From positions 3,114 through 67,113 of the forward strand of contig JAFZZS010000002.1 in the NCBI GenBank assembly GCA_017615655.1: a stretch of DNA of 64,000 nt. Reading direction: 5' to 3'. The stretch's first letter is position 1. The number at the start of each line of letters is the position of its first letter. The notes beneath the pieces were generated by a model. It saw nothing but the letters and a program-made list of their open reading frames with translations. It had not been told where the DNA came from and did no database searches. The position numbers were made by a program, and so were the translations under genes. Positions 55,540 through 63,331 of this stretch are shown here, piece by piece. Source of the stretch: Alphaproteobacteria bacterium (GTDB lineage: Bacteria; Pseudomonadota; Alphaproteobacteria; Rs-D84).

Positions 55540-57552
55540 ATGCGTGTTTGTATAAATGTTGAAGATAAGCGTTGGAAAAAATATAAAATTGATTTTTCAA
55601 AAATTGTCAATGCGTCAGTTCCTGCTAAATACAAAAATTCTGAGGTTTCAATTACACTTGTTAATGATGATGAAATACGCAAAATAAATAAGAAGTATCG
55701 CAAGATAAATAAACCAACTAATGTCCTGTCGTTTGAGTTATCAGATGATATTTTGTTGGGTGATATATTTATTTCAATTGATACTGTGATGCGCGAATCC
55801 AAACAGGAACATATTTCAGTCGCAGAACATACCGCACATATGGTTGTCCATGGCATATTACATTTATTGGGATATGACCATATGACCGATAAAGATGCGC
55901 AAAAAATGGAAACAAAGGAAATAAATATATTACGTAAGTTGGGTTACAAAAATCCATATATAAACGATGGTGATATCTGTTCAGATAGAATGTGTTGCCC
56001 CGGTGAAAAAACAATAAGTGCGTTTAGACATTTTTTTGAGGGTGCACTTGGTCGAACGATATTATACGTATTGTTTGGTTTAATATCATCATTAGGTTTT
56101 GCGCCATTCTATATGTGGTGGTTTTCTATAATTGGTATTGGGGGGGCATACTTGTTAAGTATAAAAAGTTTACCTGGACATTCGGGAATAGGTAAATTTA
56201 TACGTATCTTTCCATTTGGCGCATTTTATGCAATTGCGATGTTCTGGTGGGTATTGCATAGTATTTATGTTATTCCAGAACTTGCGGCACAATTCGCAAT
56301 ATGGACGATACCAGGGCTTATAGGTATAGGTTTGGTTGGTGGTATTGTGTTTTCCTTTCCATTTATGGCTATTTCATCTGTACGGGCAAATGCGGCGTGT
56401 AGACCATTTTTATTTGCGGCTGTTTGGACCCTTGTGCTGTGGTGTCGTGAATGGATTTTTACTGGGTTTCCATGGAATCCGATCGCTAATATTGTCATTG
56501 GAAATGTATATTTATCCAATTCTATGTCATTGTATGGGGCATTAGGGTTAACATTTGTGATAATTGGTTTGATTGGTGCACTATCGGAAATTATCAGAAA
56601 TTTCCGTAATACGATGAATTGGTTTGCTATGTTTGTTTTTGTGTGTCTGGGTGCACTTGGTATTATTTATGGCGTTAGAAATATAAATGTTTCTGCCCAA
56701 AATCATGGGATTAATTCACCGCTTATTCGTATTATACAACCCGCGCAAAGTGCTGCACAAAAAGCAACACATTCACGTACGGCTGCGCTACAAAATGCAA
56801 ATTATAATATCAATCTGATGGTGTCGTTGGCATCCATAGATGGCGAATATGATTTGGCGGTATTTCCAGAAACAGCATATCCATTTGTTATGACAGATGG
56901 GGATATAATGTCAATTTCGCGTTTGCTATCAAAACCAATAGTTATTGGTTCCAATTATTACAGTGATGGTAATTTGTATAATTCACTGATTGTATCGGAC
57001 GTAGATGGCGTAATTTCTCATGTATACAGTAAGTCACATTTGGTACCGTTTGGCGAATATCGGCCATTTGGAAATATTATACCAACACCAGGACAATTAA
57101 CGCCTGGTAATGGACCAGAACTTATTAAAATGAATATCAAAGGACAAAGATTTGTATTTGCCCCTGCGGTTTGTTATGAAGTAATATTTTCTGATTCGTT
57201 GATACCAAACGGTCAAACACCAGATGCAATTATCAATATAACAAATGATAATTGGTTTGGTAAGACCCCTGGGACGTATCAGCATCTTGATATGGTGCGC
57301 AGATATGCAATTGAATCAGGCTTGCCGATTATTCGGGCAAATTATTCGGGTGTTAGTGCATTTATTGCCGCAGATGGTAATGTTGTTGCGTATATGCCCG
57401 TAAGCCAAACAGGTCAAATAGATGGCTTTGTATGGGGTGCGCACAAGACAATGTATCGTGTAATTGGTCGTGATATGTGGATGATAATCATTTTGATAAT
57501 TTCGTGCTTGGCGGTGATATGGATTTCAGAAGTTTCACGCAATCGTTCCTGA
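55540..57552 (+). CDS. In-frame fusion: endoribonuclease YbeY (N-terminal ~150 aa) plus apolipoprotein N-acyltransferase Lnt (C-terminal ~520 aa)
   Basis: YbeY metal site HGILHLLGYDH at residues ~104-114. The Lnt multi-TM region and CN-hydrolase domain (VFPETAYPF, CYEVIF) follow with no intervening stop. An internal Met that could start Lnt lies at 55990. Confidence 0.7.
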   Translation: MRVCINVEDKRWKKYKIDFSKIVNASVPAKYKNSEVSITLVNDDEIRKINKKYRKINKPTNVLSFELSDDILLGDIFISIDTVMRESKQEHISVAEHTAHMVVHGILHLLGYDHMTDKDAQKMETKEINILRKLGYKNPYINDGDICSDRMCCPGEKTISAFRHFFEGALGRTILYVLFGLISSLGFAPFYMWWFSIIGIGGAYLLSIKSLPGHSGIGKFIRIFPFGAFYAIAMFWWVLHSIYVIPELAAQFAIWTIPGLIGIGLVGGIVFSFPFMAISSVRANAACRPFLFAAVWTLVLWCREWIFTGFPWNPIANIVIGNVYLSNSMSLYGALGLTFVIIGLIGALSEIIRNFRNTMNWFAMFVFVCLGALGIIYGVRNINVSAQNHGINSPLIRIIQPAQSAAQKATHSRTAALQNANYNINLMVSLASIDGEYDLAVFPETAYPFVMTDGDIMSISRLLSKPIVIGSNYYSDGNLYNSLIVSDVDGVISHVYSKSHLVPFGEYRPFGNIIPTPGQLTPGNGPELIKMNIKGQRFVFAPAVCYEVIFSDSLIPNGQTPDAIINITNDNWFGKTPGTYQHLDMVRRYAIESGLPIIRANYSGVSAFIAADGNVVAYMPVSQTGQIDGFVWGAHKTMYRVIGRDMWMIIILIISCLAVIWISEVSRNRS

Positions 57553-57556
57553 AGAT

Positions 57557-57760
57557 TTATTGGTGAAAATAATTTAATATCCATACACGGATTGCAGATG
57601 ACAGATTTGTCTTTAATTTACGTGCCGAATCGATTTCATTAATAATCTTGGCCACAGATGTTGCACGAATTTCTGCGATTTCATGTAATGCGTCTATAAA
57701 TTCTGACTCAAGTGAAATACTGGTTTGATGCCCTGATAAAGAAACAGATATTTTCTTCAT
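57557..57760 (-). CDS. Ribbon-helix-helix (RHH_4 family) protein
   Basis: KISVSLSGHQTSISLESEFIDALHEIAEIRATSVAKIINEIDSAR...NLSSAIRVWIL matches the conserved alphaproteobacterial RHH_4 pattern; 67 aa. Confidence 0.6.
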   Translation of the reverse strand: MKKISVSLSGHQTSISLESEFIDALHEIAEIRATSVAKIINEIDSARKLKTNLSSAIRVWILNYFHQ

Positions 57761-57761
57761 T

Positions 57762-58196
57762 TTATATTTTACCCCCCATCAAACAGTCCAAAATGGCACG
57801 GTATGGATCATCGTATTGACGTAAAATGCTAAGCCCCAAATTATCTAGCATAAAGCAGGTGCCAAAAGAATCAAATGCAAACCAAAACAAATCATTACGA
57901 CCAAAGATTGTTTTGCCACGAATACTCGGGATGTTGGTTAAATCAGAATTTATTTGAAAAATATTTGGAGTTGGGTATTTGGAAGAACTGGCAAATTCTG
58001 TTGGACCAAATATATACCCAGATCCTAATTTCATGCCGCCATATTTTTGGTAAATACTTATCATATACGATGGTAACATAGCAGCCCGAATTTTTTGTAG
58101 GTTCAGGTTTACTAGGTTTATTTGTCCGGGTGTTGCCGCAAGGGCGCATGTGACATTTCGTTCTTTAATTTTTGTTAAGAAATCCTGCTCTGTCAT
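57762..58196 (-). CDS. SUKH-1 (SMI1/KNR4)-like protein, putative immunity-type domain
   Basis: MLPSYMISIYQKYGGMKLGSGYIFG matches the LPxxYxxFLxxxNGG core. LFWFAFDSFGTCFMLD matches the C-terminal IPFAxDGxGxxxCLD motif of SUKH-1. 144 aa; 1-nt gap to the RHH gene. Confidence 0.5.
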   Translation of the reverse strand: MTEQDFLTKIKERNVTCALAATPGQINLVNLNLQKIRAAMLPSYMISIYQKYGGMKLGSGYIFGPTEFASSSKYPTPNIFQINSDLTNIPSIRGKTIFGRNDLFWFAFDSFGTCFMLDNLGLSILRQYDDPYRAILDCLMGGKI

Positions 58197-58208: not shown

Positions 58209-58712
58209 TTATTGGCGGCGATTTGATGCGATATTTGCCGCCATTTGACTAAGTCTGTCCGCGACAGCATTACCACCGTTGCCTGCAAGTGTTGAATGTA
58301 TAGGTAAGTATATTTTTTTCTTGGGATTTGGTAACCATATTGTTTCATTCCCAGATTGTTCGATTATGAATCTATCAAGGTTTTGTGATAACGGAAAAGT
58401 GTAGCACATAAACAAATTATCAAGATTTAATTGTCCGCCCCATATCAGCGGTACACGAAATCGTATTGATAGATTATCCGGAATATTTTGCCCTGTTAAT
58501 AACGCCATAAATTCATCGCGATTAAGGTTCATTAATGCCAGTTCTTGGACACAGTCAGATAGCGACTTCATAAAAGTATGACAAAGTTCTTTGTATTGTT
58601 GAAACCAATCTGGTGATACTCGAACATTATGAGGATTTATGGGCATGACCGGCATGTCCGGCATTTTCAGGTCTTTTAGGCGATTTTCAGCGTTTGCTTG
58701 TGTCCATTGCAT
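58209..58712 (-). CDS. Hypothetical protein (167 aa) in toxin-position upstream of SUKH-like gene
   Basis: No recognisable motifs. 12-nt gap to the downstream gene and 1-nt overlap with the upstream gene. Confidence 0.45.
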   Translation of the reverse strand: MQWTQANAENRLKDLKMPDMPVMPINPHNVRVSPDWFQQYKELCHTFMKSLSDCVQELALMNLNRDEFMALLTGQNIPDNLSIRFRVPLIWGGQLNLDNLFMCYTFPLSQNLDRFIIEQSGNETIWLPNPKKKIYLPIHSTLAGNGGNAVADRLSQMAANIASNRRQ

Positions 58713-59626
58713 TAATTTTTACCTATGTAATTAGTAACAGTGCTTATGTACGTAGATATAGCATCAAATAATTCTTTGTCAAAGTCTTTTGGTTGTGTGT
58801 TTTGATTTTCTGACATAAACTTCTTGAATTGTTGTAAATCACTAAATGTAGATATAAGTTCATGTCTAGTTGTACCAGTTGGTGCAATTAAACAGCCACG
58901 TAAATGAATGTCGTCTGCACTATCCCCAAGGGTTTCTTCAAAAAGAGTTACAAGGGTTTGAAATGCATCGACTACATCGGTTACACTTGCACTTGATGCC
59001 CCAATCCACAGTGTCTGATCATAACCAAGCGCAACGATTGGATTGTTCAACTTTCCAATGTGTTTACATGGTTTCATTATATATCCTGCAGATTCAAATA
59101 TTCGGTTCATTTCCATTGCAAATGGACTGTGATTATTATTTGATTTTGTTGGTGCCATCCCAGTAGGTTGTGCAGAAAGTGATGGTTGGGTATTTAATTG
59201 TTGTGTTGGTGGTGAAAATCTTTTCTGTTTAGTTGCAACCCGATTTAGCGCAGGTGATAATGGACGGGCTTGGGCAGATGGGGGGGGCCCATAGCTACTT
59301 AATACAGTCGGCTGTGTTGTAGCAGGCTGTTGTGGTTCAATAACCTGAGGCTGAGGTTTTGGCTGAACAAGAAATGGAATTTTACGAAAACGCGGTCTGA
59401 CAATCAGGTAGAGCCCGGTCAGTGCCAATATAATAGCAACTACAAGTGAAACATAGAATTCTGGTTTTATATTTGTACGCGTGGCTTGAAGTTCTGAAAG
59501 ATATTCCCAATGTGCCGCGGAAAATATATCAAATCCATACCGCATATTCATCCAAAAGGTTGCTGCAAGCGCAACCGTCATCAACCACAATATACCAAGT
59601 AAAATTTTATCGAAATTTCTTTTCAT
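58712..59626 (-). CDS. Hypothetical bitopic membrane protein: 2 TM helices, Pro/Gln-rich linker, C-terminal ~130-aa Cys-containing globular domain
   Basis: TM segments ILLGILWLMTVALAATFWM and FYVSLVVAIILALTGLYLIV. Linker QPKPQPQVIEPQQPATTQPTVL...PPPSAQARPLSP...QPSLSAQPTGMAP. 304 aa, first gene of the cassette. Confidence 0.5.
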   Translation of the reverse strand: MKRNFDKILLGILWLMTVALAATFWMNMRYGFDIFSAAHWEYLSELQATRTNIKPEFYVSLVVAIILALTGLYLIVRPRFRKIPFLVQPKPQPQVIEPQQPATTQPTVLSSYGPPPSAQARPLSPALNRVATKQKRFSPPTQQLNTQPSLSAQPTGMAPTKSNNNHSPFAMEMNRIFESAGYIMKPCKHIGKLNNPIVALGYDQTLWIGASSASVTDVVDAFQTLVTLFEETLGDSADDIHLRGCLIAPTGTTRHELISTFSDLQQFKKFMSENQNTQPKDFDKELFDAISTYISTVTNYIGKN

Positions 59627-59669
59627 TTTACTTAAATTATATCACATTTATGATAAAGTAGAAAGTGTT

Positions 59670-60356
59670 ATGATAAAAACAGATGCCATTTTTGATGTGA
59701 TAGATGAATTTTCGTGCATATGGGTTCCGACTAGTGTCGAAGCCCCCGATCTTGCAAAAATATCAAACATTGTTATTGTGCAGAATAAAGAATTTTTGTC
59801 ATTACCAATTGGGGCAATAGGTCGGGTATGGCCGTGGCTGGAACATAGTAAAGTAAAATTATTAACACGTCTGGAATTTGATTTTAAAAATGATACTACA
59901 CCAGATATGGCGATGTCTGAATTAGCAACGAAGACAACAGAAGCTTTTAGACATGGGGCGTCAGGGGCGCAAATTTTTGTTCACATTAATAATATTCCAG
60001 AATTTGTAAAAATGATTTTACCGTTGCGGGACGATTTGTTTTTTGAACGGTATCTTTCTGTGGCGATAAATATTGATGAAATTAAAAACGGTAATGTAAA
60101 AGACGTCTTGGAATTGCTTGCAAAAATCAAACCCGATTCTGTTTTAGTAATTGCAGATGGCGATTCGTTTGACCCGAAGTCTGATTTTGTAGGGCGAATT
60201 TTCGGTATGCTTGAAAATTGGGGATGGGACTTTGCATTACATATTATGTTCGGTGGCAATATGATGCGTGTAAGTCAGGTTTTACGTCTTGTACAAAGAA
60301 TGCAACCTAAATTAATATCTGATTTGCGGGTCTTTATCATTCCACCCCAAGAATAA
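59670..60356 (+). CDS. Hypothetical protein (228 aa), divergent from the 4-gene cassette
   Basis: ORF with reasonable codon usage and no recognisable family. 20-nt convergent overlap with the trmB 3' end. Confidence 0.4.
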   Translation: MIKTDAIFDVIDEFSCIWVPTSVEAPDLAKISNIVIVQNKEFLSLPIGAIGRVWPWLEHSKVKLLTRLEFDFKNDTTPDMAMSELATKTTEAFRHGASGAQIFVHINNIPEFVKMILPLRDDLFFERYLSVAINIDEIKNGNVKDVLELLAKIKPDSVLVIADGDSFDPKSDFVGRIFGMLENWGWDFALHIMFGGNMMRVSQVLRLVQRMQPKLISDLRVFIIPPQE

Positions 60357-61005: not shown

Positions 61006-62586
61006 TTGATAATGAGAACAGGTTTAAGTGAAGATTTAATTGCGCGTGTTTTGGGCGGTGCACCAAAGTATACTTTGGCAGAACTTGAGGAAAAATTTCC
61101 ATTGCGTGTATTACCCGATGGGGCTCTGGTAACCCGATTCGCACCAAGTCCAACCGGTTTTATGCATATTGGAAATCTTTATGGGGCGTTGATTGATTAT
61201 AAATTAGCGCGTCAATCGGGTGGTGTGTTTATGTTACGCATCGAAGATACTGATACAAAACGTGAAGTTTCTGGGGCGGTTGAGATAGTCAAAAATGCGA
61301 TGCAAAGTTTCGGCTTAGAGTATAATAATGATGAACAATATGGTCCGTATTATCAATCGCAACGCAGGGAAATATACCATTCTGTGGCGGCGGAATTATT
61401 AAGAACAGGGCATGCATATCCATGCTTTTTAACGGCACAAGATATGGAAAAAATTCGCGCGGAACAATCGTCTGCGGGGTTTGCAACGGGTATCTATGGC
61501 GAATTTGCACGTGATCGTGATATAACCGAAGAAGACATTATAAAGCATCTTGATAATGGCGAGATACCGTCTATTCGGCTGTATTCAACTGGTGACCCAG
61601 CAAAAAGAATTTTCTGTAAAGATGCTGTTCGTGGGTCAATTGGATTTCCAGAAAATAATGAAGACATTGTCTTAGTAAAATCAAATGATGGATTACCAAC
61701 ATACCATTTCGCGCATTTATGTGATGACCACTTTATGCGTACAACACATGTTGTTCGTGGTGAAGAATGGTTACCATCATTGCCATTACACTATCAATTG
61801 TTTCGCATGATGGAATGGACACCACCAATTTATATTCATACGGCAACGTTGGATAAAATAGATGCAGAAACAGGTAAGCAACGTAAAATGTCTAAACGTA
61901 AAGACCCAGAAAGTAATGTCGCATTTTTCTTGCAAGAAGGTTGGCCAACGGATGCGGTAATTGAATATTTAGGAAATATTTTGGCATCTGGGTACGAAGA
62001 AGCAAAATTAAAGGGTGCGGTAAAAAATTTCTGGGAATACGAAATGAAACCAAAAAAGATACCAATGTCGGGTGGTTTGTTCGATATGAAGAAATTAGAG
62101 TGGTGGTCGAAAGAATACATTGGTGCAATGTCTGTTCCTGATTTAGTAAAAAGTGTTATCGATTGGGCAAATGAATACGGTGATGAAAAACAAAAAATGC
62201 AGGTCGCAGATACCGATTATTTGACTGCGGTGCTTTCTATTGAACGCGACAATCCACGCCGTATACGTAAAGATTTTATTACATGGAAACAGACATTGGA
62301 AATAGAAGAATTTTTCTGGGATGAATTGTTTGTGGCGAACAAGGAATATAAATATAATACGGATGTATTGAACGCATTTTTAGAAACGTTTAATATTGCT
62401 GATGATAAAGATGTGTGGTGGAATAAAATAGTTGCGATTGCCGAAAAATTCGGCGTTAAAAATGGTGATGTTGCGATGAATTTGCGAGTCGCACTTTCAG
62501 GGCGCATGAATACGCCGGACCTTTATTCTATTATGCAGGTTATGGGCGAAGGACGGGTTAAGGAGAGAATAAAGAATGCAATTTAA
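61006..62586 (+). CDS. gltX: Glutamate--tRNA ligase (long form with extended C-terminal domain)
   Basis: Class I HIGH motif (PTGFMHIGN) and KMSKS (KMSKR); 526 aa. Alternative start at 61012. Confidence 0.85.
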   Translation: MIMRTGLSEDLIARVLGGAPKYTLAELEEKFPLRVLPDGALVTRFAPSPTGFMHIGNLYGALIDYKLARQSGGVFMLRIEDTDTKREVSGAVEIVKNAMQSFGLEYNNDEQYGPYYQSQRREIYHSVAAELLRTGHAYPCFLTAQDMEKIRAEQSSAGFATGIYGEFARDRDITEEDIIKHLDNGEIPSIRLYSTGDPAKRIFCKDAVRGSIGFPENNEDIVLVKSNDGLPTYHFAHLCDDHFMRTTHVVRGEEWLPSLPLHYQLFRMMEWTPPIYIHTATLDKIDAETGKQRKMSKRKDPESNVAFFLQEGWPTDAVIEYLGNILASGYEEAKLKGAVKNFWEYEMKPKKIPMSGGLFDMKKLEWWSKEYIGAMSVPDLVKSVIDWANEYGDEKQKMQVADTDYLTAVLSIERDNPRRIRKDFITWKQTLEIEEFFWDELFVANKEYKYNTDVLNAFLETFNIADDKDVWWNKIVAIAEKFGVKNGDVAMNLRVALSGRMNTPDLYSIMQVMGEGRVKERIKNAI

Positions 62587-63331
62587 ACCAAATCTTAATT
62601 TATTGAATGAATGGCGCGATGCCGAACATGCGGTAAATTTTGCTAGTAATACCGCATTTATTTCTGTGTTTAAACGTGATAACAAAACACTGGTATATAT
62701 GTGCGACCGACACAAATTAAACATATCTTTTAATATGGTTGATATGTGTTTTGCTGATGATTTCGGTGTAAAGCCAGATGTTTTATTGACCGAAATGGAA
62801 AATGATGGTTTTAAATGGAAATTAAATTGGCATGGGTTGCAGGATAATACGCTTGCCTATGCGGCGGCTGTGGCGGCAAAGAGAAATTTACCGATTGTAT
62901 TCGCAGATTTATCAGATGATCAAATGGTTAAAGTCATAAATCGTGGATTTCTAGATAATAAAATTACAGTTGCAGATTTAGGTAGAGTTCTTGGAAAATC
63001 GGGTGGGCCAGATTCCCATGGAAATCTAGATCAGCAAATGTTGGCGTATTTAGATAGGTTTGGACGCAATCCATTTATGTTACAAAATATTGCCGCAGCA
63101 TTGAATAAATATGATACAGTATTTTGTATATTTGGCATAGGACATTATGAATGCCAACGAAGTGCATTGGAAGATATGTTGGGCAAACCAGAGTATATAA
63201 CACAAATCAAAAATATGCGTGGCGATTTTTCTAATTTAAATATAACACCAATGAAATTGTATGATTTTGAACAGCCAAATACTATGGGGGTAATTATAAA
63301 TGACAAAAACAAGACGTTTGGTTCGCGCTAA
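62576..63331 (+). CDS. Hypothetical protein (251 aa), translationally coupled to gltX
   Basis: 11-nt overlap with the gltX 3' end; no recognisable family. Confidence 0.4.
   Translation: MQFKPNLNLLNEWRDAEHAVNFASNTAFISVFKRDNKTLVYMCDRHKLNISFNMVDMCFADDFGVKPDVLLTEMENDGFKWKLNWHGLQDNTLAYAAAVAAKRNLPIVFADLSDDQMVKVINRGFLDNKITVADLGRVLGKSGGPDSHGNLDQQMLAYLDRFGRNPFMLQNIAAALNKYDTVFCIFGIGHYECQRSALEDMLGKPEYITQIKNMRGDFSNLNITPMKLYDFEQPNTMGVIINDKNKTFGSR

What the first reader, a model, noticed from the sequence alone, without database searches (positions are those of the whole stretch)
58712..59626. Bitopic membrane protein with Pro/Gln-rich extended linker and Cys-containing C-terminal domain (TonB/PopZ-like architecture, no sequence match)
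Two N-terminal TM helices are followed by a ~100-aa low-complexity Pro/Gln/Ser/Thr-rich spacer, then a compact ~130-aa domain. This architecture is used by envelope-spanning or polar-scaffold proteins. The C-terminal domain has no recognisable family and could be a delivery or anchoring component of the cassette.
Basis: seen in the sequence. Interest (0 to 1): 0.55.

Follow-up and report, generated by a model that had tools for sequence, protein, structure and literature searches.

The report
Membrane-tethered orphan protein, cytoplasmic acidic head
This is a real, previously undescribed protein found only in a group of tiny-genome gut bacteria: a two-helix membrane anchor holds a long flexible proline-rich tether and an acidic, apparently non-enzymatic head inside the cell. 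It is always encoded with the same three partner genes, but its function is unknown.

Summary
Window 58712-59626 (-) encodes a 304-aa protein with two hydrophobic helices, an 84-aa Pro/Thr/Gln-rich linker and a confidently folded 139-aa C-terminal domain.

The interpretation needs correcting in four ways:
- With two helices and the charge distribution, both termini face the cytoplasm. The linker and head are therefore intracellular, not envelope-spanning like TonB.
- The cysteines are not conserved.
- The "cassette" is not mobile. It is a four-gene operon: 304 aa, then 167 aa (TAATG stop/start overlap), a 144-aa SUKH-like protein and a 67-aa RHH_4 protein. It sits at a fixed chromosomal site in every locus examined. 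197 species genomes of gut/rumen Alphaproteobacteria encode a relative; those that are named are Candidatus Enterousia (order Rs-D84, genomes under 1 Mb). None was found in phages, plasmids or viral contigs.
- No sequence method links the protein to any known family.

The head is uniformly acidic (pI about 4.3). [quoted passage not shown] No catalytic residues are conserved.

Best reading (confidence about 0.4): a membrane tether that displays a protein-binding head to operon partners, possibly descended from a nuclease-toxin/immunity locus. It is a new lineage-specific family and moderately interesting.

The parts
58712..59626 (-). Gene for the 304-aa protein (A304), the first gene of the operon.
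   Evidence: ORF. It is 100% identical to MAG protein J5742_00350, with 89 homologues. 229 representatives were found in the exhaustive profile search.
59543..59605 (-). TM helix 1 (residues 8-28).
   Evidence: Hydropathy peak of 2.14. AF2 helix 2-30 at pLDDT 84-96. No charged residue in any of 36 homologues.
59459..59542 (-). Predicted periplasmic loop (residues 29-56) with a short amphipathic helix (37-48). F32, H39, W40 and Q47 are invariant.
   Evidence: Alignment A1. AF2 helix 37-48. The loop is net neutral, with 55% mean identity.
59396..59458 (-). TM helix 2 (residues 57-77), followed by an R-P-R-x-R-K positive cluster.
   Evidence: Hydropathy peak of 2.55. AF2 helix 55-76. 4.9 Lys+Arg in the next 15 residues.
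59132..59395 (-). Cytoplasmic, basic, Pro/Thr/Ala/Gln-rich disordered linker (residues 78-165).
   Evidence: pLDDT 44-65. Length 60-110 aa, 21% Pro, pI about 10.8. 24% mean identity.
59261..59266 (-). The only conserved linker motif, R121-P122. It reads RPxS in the close clade and RPPRLNI in distant clades, and is a candidate short binding motif.
   Evidence: P122 is invariant and R121 is at least 90% conserved. Motif listing. Codons CGT CCA read.
58715..59131 (-). C-terminal acidic alpha/beta domain (residues 166-304). [quoted passage not shown] The final helix (284-303) is the most conserved element.
   Evidence: AF2 pLDDT 87-97. pI median 4.3 and net charge -6 to -20 in 33 members. Weak Foldseek neighbours are PD-(D/E)XK-fold proteins (classified in PMC3424549).
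58209..58712 (-). Second gene, a 167-aa orphan protein (B167). Its start overlaps the A304 stop (TAATG). It is the most conserved of the orphans.
   Evidence: Sequence. 217 homologues at E<=0.01; the 120 listed are 57-100% identical to the window protein. AF2 pLDDT 84.5. Present in 82 of 83 loci.
57762..58196 (-). Third gene, a 144-aa SUKH (SMI1/KNR4)-like protein (C144).
   Evidence: 9 of 21 family members give sub-threshold SMI1_KNR4 hits and 3 give SUKH_6 hits. Weak YrhA-family hit. Present in 81 of 83 loci.
57557..57760 (-). Fourth gene, a 67-aa ribbon-helix-helix protein (RHH_4).
   Evidence: PF13467 at E=1.1e-21. Present in 81 of 83 loci.
59670..60356 (+). Divergently transcribed 228-aa acidic orphan (U228), 43 bp upstream. 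It is a possible partner, but membership of the system is not established.
   Evidence: Present in 81 of 83 loci. It has the highest residual co-variation with the A304 head (partial r 0.58). No family hit.

Best explanation
A304 is an inner-membrane-anchored protein that faces the cytoplasm and acts as a tether or scaffold. A conserved two-helix hairpin fixes it in the membrane. The short loop between the helices is exposed to the periplasm and carries an invariant His-Trp. A basic, proline-rich, disordered linker of 60-110 residues then lets a compact, strongly acidic, non-catalytic alpha/beta head move through the cytoplasm near the membrane.

The head most likely works by binding proteins rather than by catalysis or direct DNA binding. 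It would hold one or more products of its own operon at the membrane. The candidates are the translationally coupled 167-aa protein, the SUKH-like 144-aa protein, and possibly the neighbouring 228-aa protein. The conserved RP(P)RL motif in the linker would be a second docking site.

The operon probably descends from a nuclease-toxin/SUKH-immunity locus that lost catalysis and became a fixed housekeeping module in this lineage of small-genome gut Alphaproteobacteria.

Shown: gene reality, architecture, predicted topology, acidity, lack of conserved catalytic residues, strict vertical co-inheritance, translational coupling.

Inferred: the tethering role, the identity of the partners, the evolutionary origin.
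For: Topology. The positive-inside counts are consistent over 36 homologues, with two confident TM helices.

Tether. The linker keeps its length range (60-110 aa), its proline content (21%) and its basic charge, although its sequence identity is only 24%. This is what is expected of a spacer selected for physical properties.

Head.
- It is confidently folded and acidic in all 33 members tested, with net charge -6 to -20. That argues against direct DNA binding.
- The conserved positions are mostly hydrophobic core residues plus the terminal helix. There is no conserved Asp/Glu/Lys triad.
- The informative Foldseek neighbours are 3fov (prob 0.85), EndoMS 5gkj (0.60), 3dnx (0.47), Kpn2I and EcoRV. 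3fov and 3dnx are listed as PD-(D/E)XK-fold families in PMC3424549; the classification of EndoMS/NucS, Kpn2I and EcoRV as the same fold rests on general knowledge. The paper also notes members that lost activity and serve as structural units.

Operon.
- TAATG overlap with the next gene, then 12-nt and 1-nt gaps.
- All four genes are present in 81-82 of 83 loci down to 31% identity of A304. The same holds in the divergent long-form subgroup.
- The named genomes are Ca. Enterousia of order Rs-D84, whose genomes are 0.75-1.0 Mb. Retention of the operon there implies selection.

Toxin-immunity ancestry.
- The third gene is SUKH-like.
- SUKH genes typically neighbour nuclease toxins, some of which carry a two-TM module (PMC3113570).
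- Residual co-variation links B167 with C144 (0.45) and the A304 membrane domain with C144 (0.43) and B167 (0.34).
Against:
- The co-variation between the A304 head and B167 is low (0.10). The strongest signal is to U228, which is outside the operon. Mirror-tree signals are confounded by shared evolutionary rate.
- The fold assignment is weak. All Foldseek E-values are >=0.02 and the TM-score to 3fov is only 0.47. [quoted passage not shown]
- The HNH-like reading of B167 failed a profile test. It rests on a motif with z of about 1.9 and on Foldseek hits with prob <=0.18.
- The highly conserved periplasmic loop suggests that the membrane domain does more than anchor.
- Topology is inferred from charge bias only.
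Confidence: 0.4

Rival explanations
1. Signal-transducing membrane regulator. The conserved periplasmic loop senses an envelope or host cue. The cytoplasmic head then sequesters or releases the RHH_4 DNA-binding protein, or the B167-C144 pair, to control transcription.
For: - The loop is as conserved as the TM helices (55% identity), with invariant F32, H39, W40 and Q47.
- An RHH_4 transcription-factor-like gene ends the operon.
- An acidic head could bind a DNA-binding protein as a DNA mimic.
Against: - RHH_4 shows no residual co-variation with any A304 region (<=0.16).
- In other Alphaproteobacteria RHH_4 sits with sspB and a DUF4169 gene, without any A304-like gene. It may therefore be an independent passenger.
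- A 28-residue loop is a very small sensor.
Confidence: 0.17
2. ZipA-like cytoskeletal tether. The head binds a cytoplasmic polymer such as the FtsZ C-terminal peptide and links it to the membrane through the flexible linker.
For: - The domain plan and sizes parallel ZipA: a membrane anchor, a Pro/Gln-rich linker of about 80-100 aa and a cytoplasmic head of about 140 aa. This comparison is from general knowledge of ZipA.
- It is a core gene in every genome of the lineage examined.
Against: - No ZipA structure appears among the 50 best Foldseek PDB matches.
- There is no sequence similarity to ZipA.
- There are no division genes in the operon.
- ZipA has one TM with its N-terminus outside.
- Nothing tested links the protein to FtsZ.
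Confidence: 0.1
3. Active membrane-anchored nuclease toxin of a polymorphic toxin system, neutralised by the SUKH protein.
For: - A SUKH-like gene lies downstream.
- Two-TM modules precede nuclease toxins in some SUKH-linked systems (PMC3113570).
- The weak structural neighbours have the restriction-endonuclease fold.
Against: - No Asp/Glu/Lys catalytic residues are conserved.
- The head is alignable in essentially all family members instead of being swapped between strains.
- It is single-copy and sits at a fixed locus in 83 of 83 loci.
- No relatives exist on phages, plasmids or viral contigs, and PADLOC was negative.
- The predicted topology keeps the head inside the producing cell.
Confidence: 0.06
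4. TonB/TolA-like periplasm-spanning energy transducer or envelope tether.
For: A proline-rich spacer followed by a compact C-terminal domain.
Against: - The two TM helices and the charge bias put the spacer and head in the cytoplasm.
- There is no TonB_C, TolA or ExbBD-type hit.
- There are no exbB/exbD or tolQR genes in the operon.
Confidence: 0.03

Closest known systems
ZipA (gammaproteobacterial FtsZ membrane tether)
   Same: It has the same design: a membrane anchor, a flexible Pro/Gln-rich cytoplasmic linker of similar length, and a globular cytoplasmic head of about 140 aa that would work by binding a partner.
   Different: ZipA has one TM with its N-terminus outside, whereas A304 has a two-TM hairpin. 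There is no sequence similarity and no fold match. The A304 head is strongly acidic, and no link to FtsZ was found.
Catalytically inactive PD-(D/E)XK (restriction-endonuclease-fold) domains such as RecC or RPB5, and the UPF0102/YraN (3fov) and COG5321 (3dnx) groups
   Same: [quoted passage not shown] Its best informative structural neighbours belong to this fold. Loss of the catalytic residues is known in this superfamily.
   Different: The matches are statistically weak (E>=0.02, TM<=0.47). Profile searches show no sequence relationship. The head has two extra C-terminal helices, is membrane-tethered, and is acidic rather than nucleic-acid-binding in character.
Two-TM nuclease toxins with SUKH immunity genes (polymorphic toxin systems; Zhang, Iyer and Aravind 2011, PMC3113570)
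   Same: An N-terminal two-TM module, a nuclease-fold-like C-terminal domain, and a SUKH-family gene downstream in the same operon.
   Different: The head is not polymorphic and has no catalytic residues. The locus is not mobile, is single-copy and is vertically inherited in a reduced genome. The head is predicted to stay in the cytoplasm.
TonB
   Same: A proline-rich spacer lies between a membrane anchor and a C-terminal domain.
   Different: TonB has one TM and a periplasmic spacer, and it needs ExbB and ExbD. The A304 spacer and head are predicted to be cytoplasmic, and there is no TonB_C similarity.

Membership tests
TonB | A single N-terminal TM helix with the Pro-rich region and C-terminal domain in the periplasm. 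| tested here: not met
   There are two TM helices. The charge bias places both termini in the cytoplasm in 36 homologues.
TonB | A TonB_C domain (Pfam/NCBIfam) and partnership with ExbB/ExbD. | tested here: not met
   No TonB_C hit at E<=10 in any of 36 members. The operon neighbours are B167, a SUKH-like protein and RHH_4.
PopZ | A soluble protein with no TM, an acidic Pro-rich disordered region and C-terminal oligomerisation helices. | tested here: not met
   Two TM helices are present. The linker is basic, with pI about 10.8.
ZipA | A C-terminal FtsZ-binding domain with the ZipA fold or sequence. | tested here: not met
   No ZipA family hit. No ZipA chain was found in the PDB sequence search or among the top 50 Foldseek matches.
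ZipA | Binds the FtsZ C-terminal peptide and localises to the division site. | not testable with these tools
   This needs binding or localisation experiments, or multimer modelling.
PD-(D/E)XK phosphodiesterase superfamily | [quoted passage not shown] | tested here: inconclusive
   The element order matches: H168-179, E183-185, E197-200, E205-211, H215-239, E241-247. The Foldseek neighbours 3fov, 5gkj, 3dnx, 6ekr and 1bss have this fold, but E is 0.02-0.5 and TM<=0.47. The core also recurs in unrelated folds.
PD-(D/E)XK phosphodiesterase superfamily | A conserved catalytic Asp ... (Asp/Glu)-x-Lys on strands 2 and 3. | tested here: not met
   Strand 2/3 positions read V-A-L-G / L-W-I-G-A. No acidic or Lys position is conserved across the 33-36 aligned members.
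Polymorphic toxin system (toxin component) | A variable C-terminal toxin domain exchanged between strains, with a cognate immunity gene immediately downstream and often orphan cassettes. | tested here: not met
   Most of the 150 listed representatives align over the whole profile, head included. The gene immediately downstream is B167, not the SUKH gene. There are no extra cassettes.
SUKH / SMI1-KNR4 superfamily (for the 144-aa partner) | A match to SUKH family profiles. | tested here: inconclusive
   9 of 21 members hit PF09346 and 3 hit PF14568. All are below the gathering score, with a best E of 0.0019. There is a YrhA-family hit at E=4e-4. No other family recurs.
HNH / His-Me finger nucleases (for the 167-aa partner) | A beta-beta-alpha core with a catalytic His and metal-binding His/Asn. 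| tested here: inconclusive
   The model contains a beta(81-85)-beta(100-104)-alpha(105-117) unit. The top Foldseek hits are HNH domains, but E>=0.5. hhalign against the colicin E9 DNase was negative. The P-x3-GG-x5-DN motif alignment scores z of about 1.9. No invariant His is present.

The most novel reading that the evidence does not exclude
A former nuclease-toxin/immunity locus has been domesticated into an indispensable, lineage-defining, membrane-associated complex in the reduced genomes of these gut Alphaproteobacteria. It would comprise a two-TM restriction-endonuclease-fold protein, an HNH-like protein and a SUKH protein. A304 would be its membrane tether, for example a functional replacement for a missing cytoskeletal or nucleoid-to-membrane anchor (a ZipA analogue).
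Probability: 0.15. Interest if true: 0.65.

Novelty: new variant of a known kind. Interest (0 to 1): 0.4.

Why it matters
The named genomes carrying this operon are Candidatus Enterousia of order Rs-D84. These are widespread in ruminant, chicken, horse and human guts, have genomes under 1 Mb, and have never been cultured (PMC12306168). In such genomes almost every retained gene is under selection. Four (perhaps five) neighbouring genes, three or four of them without any assignable family, are kept at the same chromosomal site in all 83 loci examined, and 197 species genomes encode a relative of A304. That marks a lineage-specific function worth identifying.

If the operon is an exapted toxin-immunity module, it would be a clear case of conflict-system parts being recruited for core cell biology. 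If the protein is a ZipA-type tether, it would fill a gap in how these reduced Alphaproteobacteria organise their membrane-proximal cytoplasm.

On present evidence it is an uncharacterised family with a plausible but untested role, not a demonstrated new mechanism.

Tried and rejected
- Named families. Pfam, NCBIfam and PADLOC scans of the protein and of all 36 aligned members gave only sub-threshold noise from the hydrophobic helices, such as DUF2569 and MHYT.
- PDB sequence and profile searches, with the full-length alignment and with the C-domain alignment, found nothing meaningful.
- A profile of the C-domain searched against 5.8 billion proteins returned only family members, none with a Pfam domain.
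- The exhaustive profile search of 1.84 billion representatives returned only the family itself among the 150 listed hits.
- Alternative C-termini that might reveal function. The 320-370-aa variants are the same domain with a roughly 35-aa insertion, and they have no Pfam hit. P0291 (468 aa) looks like a frameshifted read-through.
- From memory, I suspected that this insertion resembles a NERD domain. No tool supported that. The only computed similarity is a non-significant match to PQQ-type beta-propeller blades (E=0.04). I do not claim NERD membership.
- B167 as HNH. hhalign against the verified colicin E9 DNase sequence was negative. The motif-level score is only z of about 1.9.
- B167 or C144 as a divergent SspB. 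This was suggested by the sspB-DUF4169-RHH_4 arrangement in Sinorhizobium, but hhalign was negative.
- Mobile-element origin. There are no relatives in viral contigs, plasmids or phages.
- Promoter and terminator scans were at chance level.
- There are no paralogues in the window.
- A literature search for RHH_4/PF13467 found nothing relevant.
Full report
**1. The observation**

The minus strand of window 58712-59626 carries an ATG-to-stop ORF of 304 codons. Its product has three parts.
- Membrane part. Hydropathy exceeds the usual membrane threshold only in two segments, residues about 5-28 and 53-80.
- Linker. Residues 81-175 are 19% Pro and 13% Gln, with Ser, Thr and Ala also enriched.
- C-terminal domain. 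The last 130-140 residues have ordinary composition.

An AlphaFold2 model built on 36 homologues has a mean pLDDT of 81.
- It gives helices at 2-30, 37-48 and 55-76 with pLDDT 84-97.
- Residues about 80-165 are unstructured, with pLDDT 44-65.
- Residues 166-304 form a confident alpha/beta domain, with pLDDT 87-97.

The description is therefore correct, with three amendments. The protein has two membrane helices and is a hairpin, not bitopic. Its two cysteines are not conserved. It does have many homologues, but none is named.

**2. Who has it**

The protein is identical to a hypothetical protein of a metagenome-assembled Alphaproteobacterium, J5742_00350.
- It has 89 homologues at 30-72% identity, none with a name or Pfam domain.
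- An exhaustive profile search of 1.84 billion representatives found 229 proteins at E<=1e-3. All 150 that were listed are family members or fragments of them.
- A scan of one genome per prokaryotic species found relatives in 197 genomes. Of the 80 best loci that were listed, almost all are rumen, gut or faecal MAGs labelled Alphaproteobacteria or Candidatus Enterousia.
- Ca. Enterousia belongs to the uncultured order Rs-D84, whose members all have reduced genomes of 0.75-1.0 Mb (PMC12306168).
- No relative exists in viral contigs, plasmids or phage genomes, and there is no paralogue in the window.

**3. Context**

The gene is first in a tight four-gene operon.
- A304 is followed by a 167-aa protein (B167). 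The A304 stop and the B167 start overlap as TAATG.
- A 12-nt gap precedes a 144-aa protein (C144).
- A 1-nt gap precedes a 67-aa RHH_4 ribbon-helix-helix protein (PF13467, E=1e-21).
- A 228-aa orphan (U228) is transcribed divergently, 43 bp upstream.

In 83 loci from other genomes the partners are present in 81-82 cases, and the misses fall at contig ends. The flanks are always trmB on one side and a ybeY-lnt fusion gene on the other. A divergent long-form subgroup keeps the same operon. This is a vertically inherited core operon, not a mobile cassette.

Identity to the window proteins:

| Protein | Identity range |
|---|---|
| A304 | 31-60% |
| U228 | 29-62% |
| C144 | 47-81% |
| B167 | 51-86% |
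| RHH_4 | 58-82% |

**4. Topology**

Across 36 homologues the charge distribution is as follows:

| Region | Lys+Arg | Asp+Glu |
|---|---|---|
| N-terminal tail | 2.1 | 0.9 |
| 15 residues after TM2 | 4.9 | 0.6 |
| Inter-helix loop | 2.1 | 2.0 |

By the positive-inside rule, both termini are cytoplasmic. The 28-residue loop, with its short amphipathic helix and invariant F32, H39, W40 and Q47, faces the periplasm. The proline-rich linker and the C-terminal domain are therefore intracellular. This removes the TonB-like, envelope-spanning reading. The PopZ comparison fails because PopZ has no TM and has an acidic disordered region, whereas this linker is basic (pI about 10.8).

**5. Anatomy and constraints**

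Mean pairwise identity differs sharply between regions:

| Region | Mean pairwise identity |
|---|---|
| Membrane hairpin | 57% |
| Linker | 24% |
| C-domain | 42% |
| Last helix (284-303) | 65% |

- The linker keeps its length range (60-110 aa), its proline content (21%) and its positive charge. It has one conserved motif, R121-P122, which reads RPxS in the near clade and RPPRLNI in distant clades.
- The head is acidic in every member, with median pI 4.3 and net charge -6 to -20.
- Its conserved positions are mostly hydrophobic core residues plus the terminal helix F-D-A-x-S-x-Y-I-x-T-V-x-x-Y.

**6. Fold of the head**

No sequence method links the head to anything.

Foldseek against the PDB gave no significant match; the best E-value was 0.02.
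- Apart from clearly spurious crotonase alignments (RMSD 9-13 Å), the most informative neighbours are 3fov (prob 0.85, target-normalised TM-score 0.47), EndoMS/NucS 5gkj (prob 0.60), 3dnx (prob 0.47), Kpn2I and EcoRV.
- Several weak viral hits are annotated as restriction or PD-(D/E)XK nucleases.
- 3fov and 3dnx are catalogued as PD-(D/E)XK-fold families in Steczkiewicz et al. 2012 (PMC3424549). That EndoMS/NucS, Kpn2I and EcoRV share this fold is general knowledge and was not checked here.

However, the canonical Asp/(Asp/Glu)-x-Lys positions are V-A-L-G / L-W-I-G-A, and no acidic or Lys residue is conserved there. The same paper warns that this core recurs in unrelated folds.

I therefore call the head restriction-endonuclease-like and catalytically inert, at low-to-moderate confidence.

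The long-form subgroup carries a 35-residue beta-hairpin insertion after strand 3. Its only computed similarity is a non-significant match to PQQ-type propeller blades.

**7. The partners**

- C144 is the only partner with a recurring family signal. Nine of 21 members hit SMI1_KNR4 (SUKH-1) and three hit SUKH_6, all below threshold. There is also a weak YrhA-family hit.
- B167 is an orphan.
  - Its model (pLDDT 84.5) contains a beta-beta-alpha unit.
  - The top Foldseek hits are HNH domains, but E>=0.5.
  - By eye, the motif P88-x3-G92-G93-x5-N99 parallels the colicin-type HNH motif, with the catalytic His position occupied by Phe. A profile comparison with the verified colicin E9 DNase was negative, and the motif score is only about 1.9 SD above shuffles.
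  - No His is invariant. The HNH idea remains a lead only.
- Neither B167 nor C144 is a divergent SspB.
- RHH_4 is widespread in Alphaproteobacteria. In Sinorhizobium it lies next to sspB and a DUF4169 gene. In Paracoccus it lies next to a small basic ORF that I read as DUF4169-like from memory, which was not tested. It may therefore be an older resident of the locus.

**8. Co-variation**

This used 63 genomes that carry all seven proteins. Distances to trmB plus ybeY-lnt were regressed out first. The residual correlations of pairwise distances are as follows:

| Pair | Residual correlation |
|---|---|
| A304 head and U228 | 0.58 |
| The two conserved parts of A304 | 0.54 |
| B167 and C144 | 0.45 |
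| A304 membrane domain and C144 | 0.43 |
| A304 membrane domain and B167 | 0.34 |
| A304 head and B167 | 0.10 |
| RHH_4 and any other protein | <=0.16 |

These values are only suggestive. Shared evolutionary rate class can produce them, and the two fastest-evolving proteins correlate best.

**9. Mechanism**

The evidence fits a cytoplasm-facing membrane tether best.
- A conserved hairpin, possibly with a sensing or docking loop in the periplasm, anchors the protein.
- An entropic spacer carries an acidic, non-enzymatic head that binds protein partners.
- Translational coupling and strict co-inheritance point to the operon products as those partners.

A SUKH gene, a two-TM module in front of a nuclease-fold-like domain, and a possible dead HNH protein together resemble the SUKH-linked nuclease toxin systems described by Zhang, Iyer and Aravind (PMC3113570). 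The head is not polymorphic, lacks catalytic residues, is predicted to stay in the cytoplasm, and is fixed in a reduced genome. The operon is therefore more likely a domesticated descendant of such a system than an active one.

I give the tether model 0.4. The rivals are a signalling regulator (0.17), a ZipA-like cytoskeletal tether (0.10), an active toxin (0.06) and a TonB-like protein (0.03). The remainder is something not considered here.

**10. Verdict**

The architecture, the orphan status and the membership of the operon hold. The envelope-spanning analogy, the cysteine emphasis and the cassette or delivery notion do not.
- It is a new, lineage-restricted protein family built on a familiar plan (anchor, linker, head). 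The weak structural hints point to an inactivated nuclease fold.
- Interest is moderate. It is a conserved unknown in very small genomes, but no mechanism has been demonstrated.

Noticed in passing
window 55540-57552 (+): A single 670-aa ORF fuses the YbeY endoribonuclease domain to apolipoprotein N-acyltransferase Lnt (PF02130 + LNT_N + CN_hydrolase). The fusion is conserved across the lineage, and an 809-aa version occurs in the divergent subgroup.
   Followed up: partly
window 59670-60356 (+): A 228-aa acidic orphan is transcribed divergently, 43 bp from the target gene. It is present in 81 of 83 loci and matches no family or PDB sequence. It shows the strongest residual co-variation with the target's C-domain (0.58), so it may be a fifth member of the system.
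   Followed up: partly
window 58209-58712 (-), residues 141-165 of the 167-aa protein: An invariant glycine-rich motif, G-x-G-G-N-A-x-x-D-R-L-x-Q, lies in a segment that AlphaFold leaves disordered (pLDDT 39-52) and is followed by an amphipathic helix. It looks like a conserved docking peptide.
   Followed up: no
L084 1488-2600; L086 1740-2726; proteins P0286, P0288, P0297, P0302 and others: A long-form subgroup (320-370 aa) has a roughly 35-aa insertion after strand 3 of the head, with the pattern G-x-I-x-A-x-E-G-G-x-x-W ... F-x-S-P-V. A second insertion of about 10 aa follows strand 4. The first insertion weakly resembles one PQQ-type beta-propeller blade (E=0.04).
   Followed up: partly
L087 3145-4222 (Sinorhizobium meliloti); L090 2763-3207 (Paracoccus): In Sinorhizobium meliloti the RHH_4 gene follows sspB and an annotated DUF4169 gene. 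In Paracoccus it follows a 68-aa basic ORF that I read as DUF4169-like from memory, which was not tested. In the lineage carrying the operon, that slot is taken by the three orphan genes.
   Followed up: partly
window 62576-63331 (+): A soluble 251-aa protein with only a weak TraB/PrgY/GumN hit sits downstream of gltX. Three related genomes have a HlyIII-family membrane protein of the same length in that position, so this looks like a local gene replacement.
   Followed up: no
window 59627-59660 (-): A perfect TATAAT lies about 13 nt upstream of the target's ATG, with no obvious Shine-Dalgarno sequence. This hints at a very short or absent leader. The promoter scan of the region as a whole was at chance level.
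   Followed up: no
protein P0341 (233 aa): A lipoprotein-like N-terminus is joined to the C-terminal half of the head domain. This is either an assembly chimera or a rare domain shuffle.
   Followed up: no
window 59261-59266 (-), linker of the target: The conserved linker motif RPPRL(N)I resembles, from memory only, the core of proline-rich antimicrobial peptides such as Bac7 (RPRPPRLP). This is probably coincidence and was not tested.
   Followed up: no
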